From Escherichia phage vB_EcoM_ESCO49: a stretch of DNA of 64,000 nucleotides. Under the pieces are notes generated by a model. The model was given only the letters and a program-made list of their open reading frames with translations, made no database searches and was not told the origin of the DNA. The stretch lies in sequence record OM386663.1, one strand, 5' to 3'. Below are positions 4,193 through 8,461 of this stretch, in pieces (within the stretch, counting starts at the first letter, position 1; each line of letters opens with the position of its first letter). The position numbers and the translations under genes are program-made.

Positions 4193-4270
4193 TGGTGTTC
4201 CAAGACGGATTCGAACCGTCACTAATACAAGGTTTGAGCTTGCATCCTCTGCCAATTGGGATACTGGAAC
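4193..4270 (-). tRNA. tRNA with anticodon CAA (Leu by anticodon; short variable arm)
   Basis: CCA encoded; T-arm GACGG/ATTCGAA/CCGTC; acceptor 4197-4203 with 4264-4270 (one G-U); anticodon stem 5 bp including G-U, loop CUCAAAC. Confidence 0.55.
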
Positions 4271-4346: not shown

Positions 4347-4441
4347 GTGAAAGAGGTCTGAAGTTGTGCCGCTAACTCAACTCCGTGGAATTTGTTACGG
4401 TCTTCAGTTGACACCAGCGGTCTTTCACTTGACCTCTGAAT

Positions 4442-5205: not shown

Positions 5206-5288
5206 TGGCATGGGACGGAGGAGTTGAACCCCTTTGAAACGGTGTTGGAAGCCGTTGCTCATGCCTTAGAGTCTTAACATCGTCCCAT
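5206..5288 (-). tRNA. tRNA, probably Trp (anticodon CCA), 80 nt with enlarged D region
   Basis: CCA encoded; perfect acceptor (5210-5216 with 5282-5288); T-loop AGTTGAA; best anticodon loop UUCCAAC; D region is about 7 nt longer than canonical. Confidence 0.45.
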
Positions 5289-5431
5289 ACTATAATTCGA
5301 AGCTTACCGTATTATCTCAACACTGTAAAGCCCCTTCTCAGATTATTTACATGTTCTGGAAAACATGAGATACAGACCACCTCCCTACAGGAAGACCCGC
5401 TTAGGTCGTCTAAGTAATCTGCTAACTAAAT

Positions 5432-5518
5432 TGGTCGAGGCGGCAGGACTCGAACCCGCATACTCCACTTACTCGGTTAACGTCTGTTTAGAAGACAGAT
5501 GAGATACGCCCCGTAATT
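5432..5518 (-). tRNA. atypical tRNA-like gene (anticodon-type loop UCU; canonical D-arm not foldable)
   Basis: CCA encoded; good acceptor CGGGGCG/CGCCUCG and T-arm GCGGG/UUCGAGU/CCUGC; perfect hairpin UCUGU/ACAGA with loop CUUCUAA; only 7 nt where the D-arm should be and 23 nt between that hairpin and the T-arm. Confidence 0.4.
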
Positions 5519-6084: not shown

Positions 6085-6278
6085 ATTAAATTATCTTTGT
6101 AGATAAGCTACCCAGACTTGCTTAAGGTCTGTAGCGATGTGACTTTTTGGGTTTAAATCTAGAATTTACCCTTTCACCCTTTGTGGTCGCATACTCACAG
6201 GTAAGCTTAATAACTTATCTACAAAGATAATTACCAGACCATTGTTTATCATCTTAACTAGATATCTCATAAAGTGTT

Positions 6279-6366: not shown

Positions 6367-6435
6367 ATCTAATTTCTATTCAGGCTAAGGACTTGCACCT
6401 TACAAATCGGTGAGTAATCGCTTCTCTCCTAAATT

Positions 6436-6512
6436 TGGCGGTTAGTCAGGGATTCGAACCCTGTGCCATTCGCTTAACAGGCGACCGCACATACCTTATG
6501 TGCTTCCTAACC
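6436..6512 (-). tRNA. tRNA-Asn (anticodon GUU)
   Basis: CCA encoded; perfect T-arm CAGGG/ATTCGAA/CCCTG; acceptor 6 bp; anticodon stem UCGC/GCGA, loop CUGUUAA. Confidence 0.6.
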
Positions 6513-6597
6513 ATGTTTAGTATTACCAGACCGTATCTTTCAATTTTTTCTGCTAAAAATTTAATAAATATTGCTGTAAACGGTCTTCTGTAAAATT

Positions 6598-6674
6598 TGG
6601 AGGCGGGTGCAGGAGTCGAACCTGCCGATACCATGCTAATGAGACATGTGAGACGCCCTTTCTCTATACCCGCA
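6598..6674 (-). tRNA. second CAU-anticodon tRNA (Met, fMet or Ile2)
   Basis: CCA encoded; perfect T-arm GCAGG/AGTCGAA/CCTGC; acceptor 6 bp with 1:72 unpaired; anticodon stem CAUGU/GCAUG, loop CUCAUUA. Confidence 0.6.
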
Positions 6675-6804
6675 ATTCTTAATGACCAGACCAAATCTCT
6701 TCTTTGTCCGATTTACCTTCAGATGAATAAGATTAAGTTTGCTGTAATTGGTCTTCTGTCAAAACTGGCGTTCCAGAAGGGATTTGTCTACTGGAACATT
6801 AATT

Positions 6805-6881
6805 TGGTCTCTGTTGGAGGACTTGAACCTCCGGCCTTACCGCCCCAAACGGAACGCTCTACCAAGCTGAGCTAAACAGAG
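6805..6881 (-). tRNA. tRNA-Pro (anticodon UGG)
   Basis: CCA encoded; perfect acceptor (6809-6815 with 6875-6881); perfect T-arm GGAGG/ACTTGAA/CCTCC; anticodon loop UUUGGGG. Confidence 0.65.
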
Positions 6882-7045
6882 ATAAACTTTTCAAACTCTA
6901 TGTAACCACTTTAACACTATTTTTTAGTGGCTGTCAAGAACTTTTTTAAAATATTTTCAGTATCTTAGAAAAGCTCTCGTTTCGTTTCTATGTAGAACAT
7001 ATTAAAGGGTATTAAACACATTGTCAATACCCTTTTTAAAACTTT

Positions 7046-8461
7046 TTACCAGATATAACGGTCAATCATTACTGCTTTGAGCATTACGCTGATTGGGTCA
7101 AACTTCTCACCACCAAGCAGAGCTTTTAAAGTAGCTGGAGAGAAACCAGATACCATTGCTACACCGTTATCCTTAACAGATACTTCGCAAGTACCATTAC
7201 GGTTTGCTAAGTACCAGAATACCAGTTGTGGCATCTCATATCCAGCTTTTTTGTACTTACTCTGAATTTCTTCAAAGTTTGTACGACCGTTAGCTCCATC
7301 AACCTGATTGAACTCCATATCGGAGAATATGATAAGCTTACTTGGCATATCTTTCTGAGTCAAGTTATTTCTTTTACCTGTCTCAAGAATGCGGTCAAAA
7401 GCTGCTTGTAAGTTAGTTGAGCCATATTCAACGTGTCGCATCACCTGACGATGACGGTTTTGTAAATCACCACTCAGTTCGATGAAGTGAGGGTTTGTTG
7501 AATAAACCATCAACTCATTCTTAAAGCAACCTGTATTACGTTCTGCTACATACAAGGCAAGTGATACACCAATATCAAGAGCAGTAATTGAACCAAAATT
7601 CACCCAAGACATTGAGCCTGAAACATCAGACATACATAAGATGTTTTCACCTTCTGCCATCCAGTTTGGTAGTGCCTTCCACTGCTCATTAGCAACATCT
7701 GCATCACCATACTTAACAGATTTAATCACATCATATGGGTAAACAGCACCAGCATTAATCTTAGCCTCACCCTTTGATAAGGACTCTATGTAGGCTTTGT
7801 AGCGTTCTCCATCCTTACGGTTAAACAGCTTTTGGTAACGTGCAGCAGCAAGTGAAGGAATCTTACTGTAGTCAATCTTACCAAACTCGTTAGCAGAGAT
7901 TTTTTGCTCAACTGTATCAGAGAGTGCAGACAACAGTGTGCGGTACTCTTTCTCACTCAAGTTGGCAAACTTGCAGAAACGTTTTACAAACTGCTTATGA
8001 CGTGGTTTGACTCGTGGTAACCACTTGGCTGCCAAACCTGCTGTTGCAGGGTCTAGTAATGCTGCTTCTAAATGCTTGAAGGTATCTGTCTCAAAACGAG
8101 TACCTACGAAGATTTTGAAGTCATCAAAACGACCAAGTTCTGCAATCTTATCCATAATGCGAAGAACCTGTGTAGGCTCTAAAACTTTATCTTCAATCGC
8201 TTGAAGCAAAACAGTTCTGAAGGCTTTACGCTCACCCATACCTTCTCGTACATCTCGCATATGAAGCAAAATACGAACTGCAACATCAACATCCTCACGC
8301 AAAGCTTTGTAGAACAGGTCTGGTAAGAATTCTACATTGCTACGGCTTGAACCAGCAGCTTTGTAAAAGTCTACAAGAGCAGACATTGATGAAGTATGGT
8401 TTACAGCACCATTTTCAGTTCGACCTGCATGAAGGTGCGCATGTTTAAATAACTCGCTCAT
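7046..8461 (-). CDS. vWA-domain protein with MIDAS motif (possibly TROVE/Ro60-like)
   Basis: 471 aa; DxSGS MIDAS motif in ILCMSDVSGSMSW and a second vWA strand LIIFSDMEF; N-terminal about 270-aa helical domain; sits next to the tRNA cluster. The TROVE assignment is recalled architecture, not an alignment. Confidence 0.5.
   Translation of the reverse strand: MSELFKHAHLHAGRTENGAVNHTSSMSALVDFYKAAGSSRSNVEFLPDLFYKALREDVDVAVRILLHMRDVREGMGERKAFRTVLLQAIEDKVLEPTQVLRIMDKIAELGRFDDFKIFVGTRFETDTFKHLEAALLDPATAGLAAKWLPRVKPRHKQFVKRFCKFANLSEKEYRTLLSALSDTVEQKISANEFGKIDYSKIPSLAAARYQKLFNRKDGERYKAYIESLSKGEAKINAGAVYPYDVIKSVKYGDADVANEQWKALPNWMAEGENILCMSDVSGSMSWVNFGSITALDIGVSLALYVAERNTGCFKNELMVYSTNPHFIELSGDLQNRHRQVMRHVEYGSTNLQAAFDRILETGKRNNLTQKDMPSKLIIFSDMEFNQVDGANGRTNFEEIQSKYKKAGYEMPQLVFWYLANRNGTCEVSVKDNGVAMVSGFSPATLKALLGGEKFDPISVMLKAVMIDRYIW

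What the first reader, a model, noticed from the sequence alone, without database searches (positions are those of the whole stretch)
6573..6800. Conserved 30-nt element repeated at the 3' flank of tRNAs, plus a tRNA-acceptor-like remnant
TGCTGTAAACGGTCTTCTGTAAAATTTGG (6573-6601) and TGCTGTAATTGGTCTTCTGTCAAAACTGG (6750-6778) are about 80% identical; the first overlaps the CCA end of the CAU tRNA at 6598-6674. Right after the second, GTTCCAG...CTGGAAC (6771-6797) forms a 7-bp stem with the same acceptor sequence as the tRNA at 4193-4270 but has no tRNA body, suggesting a decayed duplicate. These may be processing or termination signals spread by tRNA duplication.
Basis: seen in the sequence. 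Interest (0 to 1): 0.4.

Follow-up and report, generated by a model that had tools for sequence, protein, structure and literature searches.

The report
Phage Y-RNA-like genes between tRNAs
The repeated 30-mer is half of two small folded RNA genes sitting between phage tRNA genes; they belong to a widespread RNA family, absent from Rfam and the searched literature, that always sits next to a phage copy of the Ro60 RNA-binding protein and is probably its partner RNA.

Summary
The window is a Felix O1-like phage (Felixounavirus). All tRNAs lie on the minus strand. The two 29-mers are real (6572-6600 and 6740-6768; 24/29 identical). They are not tRNA trailers spread by duplication. Each is the 5' half of a 71-79-nt hairpin-closed RNA: a 4-bp outer helix, an AGA/G internal loop, a 7-bp inner helix, then an unpaired UUACAGCAA. 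The 3' arms lie 40-60 nt away, and three of the five differences between the copies are compensated there.

The same architecture (terminal stem, ACAGCA(A), unpaired G after the 3' arm) occurs in tandem next to the homologous gene in 12 phage groups and in 41 of 75 independent metagenomic phage loci. All 51 hits lie on the gene's strand, and 44 lie within 500 nt of the gene. That gene (window 7046-8461, DUF2828+vWA) is predicted to have a Ro60 fold. Long family members carry a YrlA-type tRNA-like module.

I therefore read the elements as short Y-RNA-like ligands of the phage Ro60 homologue, released by tRNA processing; binding is not shown. They also match the Dictyostelium Class I RNA model below threshold. 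The "remnant" is a tRNA-Glu with a 46-nt internal deletion, not a copy of tRNA-Leu.

The parts
6683..6761 (-). Y-RNA-like element 1, in the spacer from the deleted tRNA-Glu to tRNA-Met. Outer helix UGAC 6761-6758 pairs with GUCA 6686-6683. Internal loop is AGA 6757-6755 opposite G 6687. Inner helix AGACCAA 6754-6748 pairs with UUGGUCU 6694-6688. The motif UUACAGCAA is at 6747-6739.
   Evidence: Fold; motif and arm positions; covariance model R1 44.4 bits; model R2, built without any Ounavirinae sequence, 29.4 bits, E 4.6e-4; RF01414 19.7 bits.
6523..6593 (-). Y-RNA-like element 2, in the tRNA-Met to tRNA-Asn spacer. Outer helix UUAC 6593-6590 pairs with GUAA 6526-6523. Internal loop is AGA 6589-6587 opposite G 6527. 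Inner helix AGACCGU 6586-6580 pairs with ACGGUCU 6534-6528. The motif UUACAGCAA is at 6579-6571.
   Evidence: Fold, z = -1.8; positions; R1 57.4 bits; independent R2 32.9 bits, E 6.8e-5; RF01414 21.4 bits.
6766..6797 (-). Remnant of tRNA-Glu(UUC): the 5' 14 nt and the 3' part (T-loop end, acceptor 3' strand, G, CCA) are retained; 46 nt are deleted internally.
   Evidence: Alignment with Felix O1. ARAGORN and Rfam call no tRNA here.
6598..6674 (-). tRNA-Met(CAU), atypical, flanked on both sides by the two elements.
   Evidence: ARAGORN. No RF00005 match even at E <= 10. Conserved in all Ounavirinae loci.
6805..6881 (-). tRNA-Pro(UGG), the first gene of the tRNA array.
6436..6512 (-). tRNA-Asn(GUU). 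RNase P cleavage at its 5' end would release the 3' end of element 2 (inferred).
7046..8461 (-). Gene for a 471-aa Ro60-fold protein (Pfam DUF2828 + DUF7788/vWA), the proposed protein partner. It is homologous to Bas63 gp130.
   Evidence: ORF; Pfam; AlphaFold model pLDDT 88; Foldseek against PDB puts Ro60/TROVE structures on top, e.g. 2i91 with TM 0.66 over the full length; literature on Bas63 gp130.
6231..6257 (-). Relic 3' end (…AACAAUGGUCU-G-GUAA) of the long, YrlA-like family member that Felix O1 has. In this lineage its 5' ~100 nt, short element 3 and tRNA-Asp are deleted.
   Evidence: Alignment with Felix O1; motif search; Felix O1 long element with T-arm and D-arm.
6908..7027 (-). Two sigma-70-like promoter matches upstream of tRNA-Pro (TTGACA-17-TAATAT at 7027-6999 and TTGACA-18-TAAAGT at 6937-6908). 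A terminator-like hairpin follows the Ro60-like gene at 7035-7004.
   Evidence: Consensus scan only. The number of promoter-like sites in the region is no higher than in shuffles, so this is weak.

Best explanation
The two repeated 29-mers are the 5' halves of two paralogous small RNA genes (71 and 79 nt) embedded in the minus-strand tRNA operon of a Felix O1-like phage.

Shown:
- Each RNA is closed by pairing of its 5' and 3' ends: a 4-bp outer helix, an asymmetric AGA/G internal loop and a 7-bp inner helix.
- Each presents an unpaired UUACAGCAA directly after the 5' arm.
- They belong to a large phage RNA family (terminal 6-9-bp stem, N-W-A-CAGCA-A, variable interior, unpaired G after the 3' arm).
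- This family is genetically linked to a Ro60-fold protein gene of the DUF2828+vWA type, which here lies immediately upstream at 7046-8461.

Inferred:
- The RNAs are transcribed with the tRNAs.
- They are cut out as by-products of tRNA maturation. RNase P cleavage at the 5' end of the next tRNA, plus endonucleolytic cleavage and trimming after the CCA of the previous one, would set the ends, and the terminal helix would stop exonucleases.
- The stem, the ACAGCA motif and the G form the binding site of the phage Ro60 homologue. On this reading they are short (YrlB-like) Y RNAs that gate or tether that protein.

From the literature:
- In related systems the protein and its RNAs act on host exoribonucleases such as PNPase.
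- In the Felixounavirus Bas63 the protein counters the Ppl defence system.

The neighbouring 28-nt hairpin is a tRNA-Glu gene inactivated by a 46-nt deletion. This lineage has also lost tRNA-Asp, a third short element and the long tRNA-like (YrlA-type) member.
For: 1. Structure. Both spacers fold into the same closing stem. Orthologues and paralogues add outer-helix variants UUGC/GCAA (SUSP1, TH10) and GAGC/GCUC (Felix element 3).

2. Family. 38 distinct elements came from 12 phage groups. In the scan window immediately flanking the Ro-like gene, copies are absent only from the Pseudomonas phage Milchi locus, whose elements lie in its tRNA array about 3 kb downstream. All 7 stem pairs show double changes and 99.6% of cells are paired. 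CAGC is invariant, the following A is nearly so, and a G follows the 3' arm in over 90% of elements; that G was not used to select them.

3. Independent detection. A covariance model built only from non-Ounavirinae phages finds exactly these two sites in the 64-kb window (32.9 and 29.4 bits; the next hit is 17.9 bits).

4. Linkage. In 75 metagenomic phage loci chosen only for the protein (39-47% identity), the RNA model gives 51 hits in 41 loci. All 51 are on the gene's strand, and 44 lie within 500 nt of the gene.

5. Protein. The AlphaFold model (pLDDT 88) matches Ro60/TROVE structures over its full length, including Xenopus Ro60 (TM 0.66), Thermus phage phiLo Ro60 and D. radiodurans Rsr. 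Homologues in mycobacteriophages are annotated 'Ro-like RNA binding protein'.

6. Y-RNA character. Long family members have the same terminal stem and ACAGCAA but enclose a T-arm / stem / D-arm module. They hit Rfam YrlA below threshold in two loci: Klebsiella FBKp34 (39.6 bits, full length) and mycobacteriophage Whirlwind (38.3 bits). A further sub-threshold YrlA hit in phiM12 (35.2 bits, L013 2562-2626) lies about 480 nt outside the family element found there.

7. Operator mimic. Mini-versions (stem + ACAGCAA + G) sit 8-13 nt before the Shine-Dalgarno/ATG of the Ro-like gene in at least 6 lineages. That fits autoregulation by a protein that recognises this motif.

8. Literature. Bas63 gp130 is Ro60-like and lies directly upstream of the tRNA block; its authors only guessed that some 'tRNAs' might be Y RNAs. 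Phage phiLo Ro60 binds two adjacent Y-like RNAs and host PNPase.
Against: - No expression, end-mapping or binding data exist for any family member. None was found in the literature searched.
- The canonical Ro-binding motif (GGUCCGA, or GNCGAAN0-1G / CGAA) is absent. The conserved motif is different.
- The two window elements lack the tRNA-like module and do not match Rfam YrlA.
- Their thermodynamic stability is unremarkable (z = -1.8 and -0.7).
- The stem covariation statistic is partly circular, because elements were collected by requiring at least 6 bp.
- This lineage has lost the long YrlA-like member, so the system may be decaying here.
- 34 of the 75 metagenomic loci gave no hit at E <= 0.1.
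Confidence: 0.7

Rival explanations
1. The hairpins are purely cis-acting spacers of the tRNA operon. They would serve as folding insulators or RNase III/RNase E/RNase P processing guides that help neighbouring tRNAs mature, with no function once released.
For: In Ounavirinae and in Pseudomonas phage Milchi they sit exactly between tRNAs. They start 4-5 nt after a CCA and end about 10 nt before the next tRNA. A/U-rich AUUUU/GUUUU follows the CCA, like RNase E sites (own knowledge).
Against: Most tRNAs in the same array are separated by only 1-7 nt and need no such spacer. Family members in mycobacteriophages, Listeria and Staphylococcus phages have no flanking tRNAs. An invariant single-stranded CAGC(A) and a fixed G are not expected for a mere insulator. 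The covarying bases favour pairing within a spacer, not across tRNA-Met as in rRNA-type processing stems. Position tracks the Ro60-like gene.
Confidence: 0.1
2. They are base-pairing small RNAs. The conserved unpaired ACAGCAA would act as a seed that pairs with a UUGCUGU target in a host or phage RNA, independently of the Ro60-like protein.
For: A conserved, predicted single-stranded 7-9-mer is presented on a stable stem, in several tandem copies with variable bodies.
Against: No target was identified. Strict co-location and co-orientation with one protein gene, and copies placed as 5'-UTR hairpins of that gene, point to protein recognition. The fixed G at the far end of a fixed-length helix is not explained by seed pairing.
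Confidence: 0.1
3. They are cis-regulatory mRNA elements (operators or stabilisers) of the Ro60-like gene's transcript rather than separate RNAs.
For: Many hits lie 26-32 nt after the stop codon or 8-13 nt before the ribosome-binding site of the gene.
Against: In this window they are separated from the gene by a terminator-like hairpin, promoter-like sites and tRNA-Pro, and they lie between tRNAs that must be excised. Up to 8 tandem copies occur (Aeromonas LAh_6), and long members carry tRNA-like modules. Both fit RNA genes.
Confidence: 0.07
4. They are DNA-level repeats: duplication scars, recombination or homing-endonuclease target sites in a tRNA region rich in HNH genes.
For: The tRNA block is highly plastic. 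HNH genes are inserted at several places in relatives, and this lineage has two deletions.
Against: All 51 independent hits are strand-specific. Compensatory changes keep a helix while its sequence is free. An unpaired motif is conserved across hosts from Mycobacterium to Campylobacter. HNH insertions lie outside the elements.
Confidence: 0.03

Closest known systems
Bacterial and phage Y RNAs (D. radiodurans Yrn1; Salmonella YrlA/YrlB, Rfam RF02553; Thermus phage phiLo Yrl1/Yrl2)
   Same: They are encoded next to a Ro60-fold gene, often in two to four tandem copies. They are about 60-130 nt, with a stem formed by the 5' and 3' ends containing an internal loop or bulge, and a variable interior. 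One long member per genome carries a permuted tRNA-like T-arm/D-arm module, like YrlA, alongside shorter members, like YrlB.
   Different: The partner protein is the divergent DUF2828 branch, not Pfam TROVE. The conserved motif is ACAGCA(A) on the loop side of the stem plus a 3' G, not GGUCCGA / GNCGAAG / CGAA. The window's two copies have no tRNA-like module and do not match RF02553. In Ounavirinae and in phage Milchi they are interleaved with tRNAs. Binding has not been tested.
Dictyostelium Class I RNAs (Rfam RF01414; Kjellin et al. 2021, PMC7919456)
   Same: Both have a short terminal stem joining the 5' and 3' ends whose sequence is free but whose pairing is kept, and a conserved unpaired motif directly after the 5' arm. 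That motif is CCUUACAGCAA in Dictyostelium and N-W-ACAGCAA in the phage family. The positions most conserved across dictyostelids (C6, C9, A10, A11) coincide with the phage invariants. Both have a G at the 5' start of the stem, an unpaired (U)G after the 3' arm, a variable interior and many paralogues. RF01414 aligns end to end with the phage elements: 19.7-21.4 bits in the window, 23.6-25.2 bits in Klebsiella FBKp34 and 25.7-29.6 bits in Aeromonas LAh_6.
   Different: All scores are below Rfam's gathering score of 41.5. The phage stems are 7-9 bp and the RNAs longer. There is no DUSE promoter. The hosts are bacteria. The known Class I binder is an RRM protein (Rnp1A/CIBP), and no Ro60-like link is reported. 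Class I RNAs were reported as unique to Dictyostelia. The resemblance may be convergent or chance.
Small stable RNAs of the phage T4 tRNA cluster (species 1 and 2 / band C and D RNAs); comparison from my own knowledge, not tested here
   Same: These are non-tRNA small RNAs co-transcribed with phage tRNAs and released by the tRNA-processing machinery.
   Different: The T4 RNAs are about 120-140 nt with tRNA-like termini and no known protein partner. No sequence relation was examined.
tRNA pseudogene by internal deletion (applies to the 6766-6797 remnant only)
   Same: It keeps both acceptor strands, the T-loop end and the CCA of the tRNA-Glu of Felix O1.
   Different: The shared GTTCCAG acceptor is a similarity between two different tRNAs.

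Membership tests
Y RNA (Ro60-associated non-coding RNA) | Encoded adjacent to a Ro60 orthologue | tested here: met
   The Ro60-fold gene at 7046-8461 is 285-453 nt upstream of the elements. In 75 independent loci, 44 of 51 hits lie within 500 nt of the gene and all are on its strand.
Y RNA (Ro60-associated non-coding RNA) | About 80-130 nt, a long stem formed by the 5' and 3' ends with a bulge or internal loop, and a large variable internal loop | tested here: met
   The elements are 71 and 79 nt, slightly short. They have 4+7 bp helices around an AGA/G internal loop, with covariation between paralogues and orthologues.
Y RNA (Ro60-associated non-coding RNA) | Conserved Ro-binding sequence on the 5' strand (GGUCCGA in animals; GNCGAAN0-1G / CGAA in bacteria and phage phiLo) | tested here: not met
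   No such motif is present. The family invariant is CAGCA within UUACAGCAA, plus a G after the 3' arm.
Y RNA (Ro60-associated non-coding RNA) | Physical binding to the Ro60 protein | not testable with these tools
   Needs EMSA, RIP or a structure. The only indirect hint is the motif hairpins next to the gene's ribosome-binding site.
YrlA (Rfam RF02553) | tRNA-like T-arm / acceptor-like stem / D-arm module; score at or above the gathering score of 69 bits | tested here: not met
   The window elements give no RF02553 match at E <= 10 and have no T-loop. Long relatives reach only 38-40 bits (FBKp34 39.6, Whirlwind 38.3).
Dictyostelium Class I RNA (Rfam RF01414) | Terminal ~6-bp stem with the 11-nt motif CCUUACAGCAA directly 3' of the 5' arm | tested here: met
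   The window has GACCG-UUUACAGCAA...ACGGUC-UG and GACCA-AUUACAGCAA...UUGGUC-UG. Both align to model positions 1-56. 9 of the 11 motif positions are identical.
Dictyostelium Class I RNA (Rfam RF01414) | Score at or above Rfam's gathering score (41.5 bits), or at least 25 bits as used by Kjellin et al. | tested here: not met
   The window elements score 21.4 and 19.7 bits. The best phage relative scores 29.6 bits.
Dictyostelium Class I RNA (Rfam RF01414) | 42-65 nt, DUSE promoter about 60 nt upstream, dictyostelid genome | tested here: not met
   The inner-stem units are 59 and 67 nt. They lie in a phage tRNA operon with sigma-70-like promoters. DUSE does not apply.
   No terminator-like site overlaps the elements. 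The elements occur without tRNAs in several phage groups.
tRNA pseudogene (remnant 6766-6797) | Collinear homology to an intact tRNA in close relatives, with a disabling lesion | tested here: met
   The flanks are 100% identical to Felix O1 tRNA-Glu(UUC), with a 46-nt gap. It is not called by ARAGORN or Rfam.

The most novel reading that the evidence does not exclude
The phage 'stem + ACAGCAA + G' RNAs and the Class I RNAs of dictyostelid amoebae are the same kind of RNA. On this reading Class I RNAs, reported as unique to Dictyostelia and of unknown mechanism, would be Y-RNA-like ligands of a Ro60-fold (DUF2828-type) protein, either inherited from or exchanged with phages of the bacteria the amoebae eat. 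The phage family would then define a second, ancient Ro60-RNA recognition code found in viruses of Gram-negative bacteria, Gram-positive bacteria and actinobacteria.
Probability: 0.15. Interest if true: 0.9.

Novelty: new variant of a known kind. Interest (0 to 1): 0.75.

Why it matters
Ro60-like genes are common in large phages, and one of them (Bas63 gp130, a close relative of the gene in this window) was recently shown to counter a bacterial defence system. Its RNA partner was unknown, and the authors could only guess that some neighbouring 'tRNAs' might be Y RNAs.

This analysis gives:
- concrete, testable RNA candidates with a defined recognition signature (helix of fixed length, CAGCA, 3' G);
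- evidence that the signature is shared by phages of at least a dozen lineages and is absent from Rfam;
- a possible autoregulatory use of the same motif in the gene's leader.

It also explains non-tRNA 'spacers' in phage tRNA arrays as genes in their own right. The unexpected match to Dictyostelium Class I RNAs turns an open question, what those abundant RNAs bind and do, into a directly testable hypothesis.

Tried and rejected
1. Sigma-70 promoter. Copy 1 contains a perfect TTGACA and copy 2 TTTACA, but the -10 positions are poor and not conserved in Michonne or SUSP1, and the scan gives at best 9/12. Rejected.

2. Intrinsic terminator. There is no U-tract and no hit. Rejected.

3. A processing stem pairing across tRNA-Met (the 3' arm of spacer 1 with the 5' arm of spacer 2, as in rRNA operons). 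The covarying positions would mismatch, so pairing within each spacer is favoured. Rejected.

4. Degenerate tRNA or armless tRNA in the spacers. There is no T-loop, the inner unit is 59-67 nt, and neither ARAGORN nor Rfam finds a tRNA. Rejected.

5. Integron attC-like recombination site. Considered because the repeats flank a gene cassette. There is no R'/R'' core or integrase, and strand-specific RNA-type conservation argues against it. Rejected without a formal test.

6. YrlA membership of the two window elements. Not met.

7. Literature search for expression of any family member. The Campylobacter phage NCTC 12673 RNA-seq paper reports an ncRNA at a different locus. Searches for the motif string returned only primers.

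8. Whether Dictyostelium has a DUF2828/Ro60-fold protein could not be tested. The afdb50 library was unavailable, and the papers of Avesson 2011, Sim 2020 and Burroughs 2016 are not held.

9. A third and a fourth copy in the window. Only a 27-nt relic remains. The other 6-bp 'hits' of my regex scan in the window are at the level seen in shuffles (18 against 6.4 expected at the loosest setting; none has the G or scores in the covariance models).
Full report
**What the window is.** The region matches Felix O1-like phages (Felixounavirus, Ounavirinae) at 95-99% identity; the best matches are the E. coli phages ESCO45, ESCO50 and ESCO56. ARAGORN finds 19 tRNA genes between 2.5 and 6.9 kb, all on the minus strand. 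The finding therefore has to be read as its reverse complement.

**Checking the observation.**
- The two 29-mers are present at 6572-6600 and 6740-6768.
- They share 24 of 29 bases. A degenerate 24-mer matches only these two sites in 64 kb, with none expected in shuffles.
- On the transcribed strand each begins with the CCA of a tRNA, or of a tRNA remnant, and runs into the downstream spacer.
- The GTTCCAG/CTGGAAC hairpin is at 6770-6797 and shares its 5' strand with tRNA-Leu(caa).

**The remnant.** Aligning the region with Felix O1 shows perfect identity except for one 46-nt gap. The 'remnant' is Felix O1's tRNA-Glu(UUC) with its D arm, anticodon arm and most of its T arm deleted between two CAAA repeats.
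- In phage nataliec the same slot holds an HNH endonuclease gene and a different tRNA-Glu. Directly after that tRNA's CCA comes the same repeat element.
- The element therefore does not travel with a particular tRNA.

**Anatomy of the repeat.**
- The spacers from the deleted tRNA-Glu to tRNA-Met, and from tRNA-Met to tRNA-Asn, are similar at both ends and different in the middle.
- A second conserved block, GGTCTGGT(A/C)AT, lies 40-60 nt downstream of each 29-mer.
- Folding gives the same shape twice: UUAC-AGA-AGACCGU...ACGGUCU-G-GUAA and UGAC-AGA-AGACCAA...UUGGUCU-G-GUCA.
- Other Ounavirinae (Michonne, SUSP1, Andreotti, TH10) keep the arms and the unpaired UUACAGCAA while the interior diverges freely. 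They add further compensated variants of the outer helix (UUGC/GCAA), and a third paralogue has GAGC/GCUC.
- The '30-nt element' is therefore the 5' half of a hairpin-closed RNA of 71-79 nt: 6593-6523 and 6761-6683 on the minus strand.
- Promoter and terminator readings fail. The -10 regions are not conserved and there is no U-tract.

**The neighbouring gene.** Directly upstream of the tRNA array is a 471-codon gene (7046-8461, minus strand) with Pfam DUF2828 and DUF7788.
- An AlphaFold model built on 41 homologues (pLDDT 88) matches Ro60/TROVE structures over its whole length. These are Xenopus Ro60 (TM 0.66), a Thermus phage Ro60 and Deinococcus Rsr. vWA domains match the C-terminal part only.
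- Homologues occur in about 700 phage genomes of very different kinds. In mycobacteriophages they are annotated 'Ro-like RNA binding protein'.
- In the Felixounavirus Bas63 this protein (gp130) was shown to counter the Ppl defence system. Its authors speculated that some neighbouring 'tRNA genes' might be Y RNAs.
- Ro60 proteins normally work with Y RNAs encoded next to them. This has been shown for a Thermus phage, whose two Y-like RNAs bind its Ro60 and host PNPase.

**A family of RNAs linked to that gene.**

*Rfam matches.* The only family touching the two spacers is the Dictyostelium Class I RNA model RF01414, below threshold (21.4 and 19.7 bits). It aligns end to end because it shares a terminal stem, UUACAGCAA right after the 5' arm, and UG after the 3' arm. 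The gap downstream of the homologous gene in an unrelated Klebsiella phage gave the same match twice. It also gave a sub-threshold YrlA (Y RNA-like) match whose terminal stem is again followed by UUACAGCAA.

*Simple scan.* I searched for a stem of at least 6 bp followed, after 1-3 nt, by CAGCAA. This found tandem copies beside the gene in these groups:
- Ounavirinae: four per genome in Felix O1
- Klebsiella FBKp34: three to four
- Aeromonas LAh_6: at least seven
- two mycobacteriophages: three each
- Campylobacter NCTC12673: two
- Listeria LP-083-2: three
- a Staphylococcus phage: three
- Bacillus Izhevsk: five
- an Enterococcus phage, Cronobacter LPCS28 and Sinorhizobium phiM12

*Covariation.* Over 38 distinct elements the helix sequence is free but 99.6% paired, with double changes at all seven pairs. 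CAGC is invariant, the following A is nearly so, and a G follows the 3' arm in over 90% of elements. The pairing statistic is partly circular, because pairing was a search criterion. The G and the motif context were not.

**Non-circular tests.**
- A covariance model built only from non-Ounavirinae phages finds exactly the two window elements as its best hits in 64 kb: 32.9 bits (E 7e-5) and 29.4 bits (E 5e-4). The next hit is 17.9 bits.
- The full model also found new members it was not trained on, including four between tRNAs in Pseudomonas phage Milchi with the variant AACAGCAC.
- I then fetched 75 metagenomic viral loci, chosen only because they encode a 39-47% identical protein. The model gave 51 hits at E <= 0.1 in 41 loci. 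All 51 are on the gene's strand, and 44 lie within 500 nt of the gene.
- This linkage is far beyond chance and is the core of the argument.

**Why 'Y-RNA-like'.**
- The long members of the family have loops of roughly 100 nt. They occur in Felix O1, Klebsiella FBKp34, Cronobacter LPCS28, both mycobacteriophages and Bacillus Izhevsk.
- They keep the same stem and motif but enclose a T-arm, a stem-loop and a D-arm, which is the permuted tRNA-like module that defines YrlA.
- Two of them hit RF02553 below threshold (FBKp34 and Whirlwind). A further RF02553 hit in phiM12 lies about 480 nt outside the element found there.
- The short members, like the two in the window, correspond in role to the shorter YrlB-type RNAs.
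- In at least six lineages a miniature stem + ACAGCAA + G hairpin sits 8-13 nt before the ribosome-binding site of the Ro60-like gene itself. This is what one expects if the protein recognises this signature and autoregulates.

**State of the system in this window.** Compared with Felix O1, this lineage lacks about 335 nt between tRNA-Tyr and tRNA-Lys. That stretch held tRNA-Asp, the third short element and the 5' 100 nt of the long YrlA-like element. Only the long element's 3' end survives, at 6231-6257. Together with the tRNA-Glu deletion, this shows a decaying accessory region in which two short elements remain intact.

**Mechanism proposed.**
- Shown: two conserved, covarying hairpin RNAs with an invariant loop-side motif; membership of a family tightly linked to a Ro60-fold gene.
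- Inferred: co-transcription with the tRNAs from promoter-like sites at 7027-6908; release by RNase P at the next tRNA's 5' end and by cleavage and trimming after the preceding CCA; binding of the stem, the CAGCA motif and the G by the Ro60 homologue.
- By analogy with published systems: modulation of host exoribonucleases, or protection against a defence nuclease.
- I put 0.7 on the Y-RNA-like ligand reading, and about 0.9 on the narrower claim that these are members of a Ro60-gene-linked RNA family.

**Comparison with known families.**
- The elements work like Y RNAs but fail one defining sequence feature: the GGUCCGA/GNCGAA motif. Their partner is the DUF2828 branch rather than Pfam TROVE.
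- They resemble Dictyostelium Class I RNAs in every architectural feature and in the motif, but score below both Rfam's and the authors' thresholds, and those RNAs are reported as restricted to dictyostelids.
- Rfam 15 has no model that captures them. The literature searches found no description of them.
- I therefore class the finding as a new variant of a known kind. The Class I connection is an unproven but testable extension.

Noticed in passing
window 6598-6674 (-): The tRNA-Met(CAU) flanked by the two elements is called by ARAGORN but gets no Rfam tRNA match even at E <= 10. It has a U1-C72 mismatch and three nucleotides between the acceptor and D stems, yet it is conserved in all Ounavirinae loci examined. 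It could be a tRNA-Ile2-type or otherwise unusual tRNA.
   Followed up: partly
window 5435-5513 (-) and about 5208-5290 (-): Rfam finds a tRNA (33.4 bits) at 5435-5513 that ARAGORN misses. Relatives have tRNA-Arg(tct) there. A further tRNA-like 3' half (GGGGTTCAACTCCTC...CCCATGCCA) lies just upstream of tRNA-Ser(tga) and neither tool calls it.
   Followed up: no
window 4347-4441 (-): The 95-nt spacer between tRNA-Thr and tRNA-Val is almost invariant across Felixounavirus, Mooglevirus and Suspvirus. It has nested inverted repeats and contains ACTGAAGACCGTAAC, which resembles the 5' arm of the Y-like elements. It may be another structured RNA.
   Followed up: no
window about 6088-6228 (-): A 19-bp perfect inverted repeat (ATTATCTTTGTAGATAAGC...GCTTATCTACAAAGATAAT) encloses about 100 nt just upstream of tRNA-Lys(ttt). 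It is conserved in Felix O1. Its function is unknown.
   Followed up: no
window 6367-6435 (-): The 69-nt tRNA-Asn to tRNA-Tyr spacer folds well (-15 kcal/mol, z = -2.0) and contains a T-arm-like AAGGTGCAAGTCCTT. It is absent (an 8-10-nt spacer instead) in phages Andreotti and TH10.
   Followed up: partly
L008 1494-1610 (Aeromonas phage LAh_6): A tRNA (Rfam 49 bits) carries an insertion of about 40 nt containing the exact 11-mer CCTTACAGCAA of the Dictyostelium Class I motif. It looks like a tRNA fused with the Y-like signature.
   Followed up: partly
L029 3951-3990, L031 1761-1799, L035 2856-2894, L051 3947-3989, L081 3904-3947, L013 3893-3934, L010 3965-4005: Miniature stem + ACAGCAA + G hairpins lie 8-13 nt upstream of the Shine-Dalgarno/ATG of the Ro60-like gene in several unrelated phages. 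In Vibrio phage nt-1 the 3' arm includes the start codon. This may be an autoregulatory operator.
   Followed up: partly
L017 1429-1980 (Listeria phage LP-083-2): A near-threshold match to the large ROOL RNA (87.4 bits against a gathering score of 99.1) lies about 1 kb upstream of the Ro60-like gene and its three Y-like elements. An RtcB-like RNA ligase gene lies 1.3 kb downstream.
   Followed up: no
L021 761-1195 (phage nataliec); L001 850-1242 and 1730-2215 (Felix O1): HNH homing-endonuclease genes are inserted at different points of the tRNA array in different Felixounaviruses. This goes with gain, loss and replacement of individual tRNAs, so the array is a hotspot of cassette-like turnover.
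   Followed up: partly
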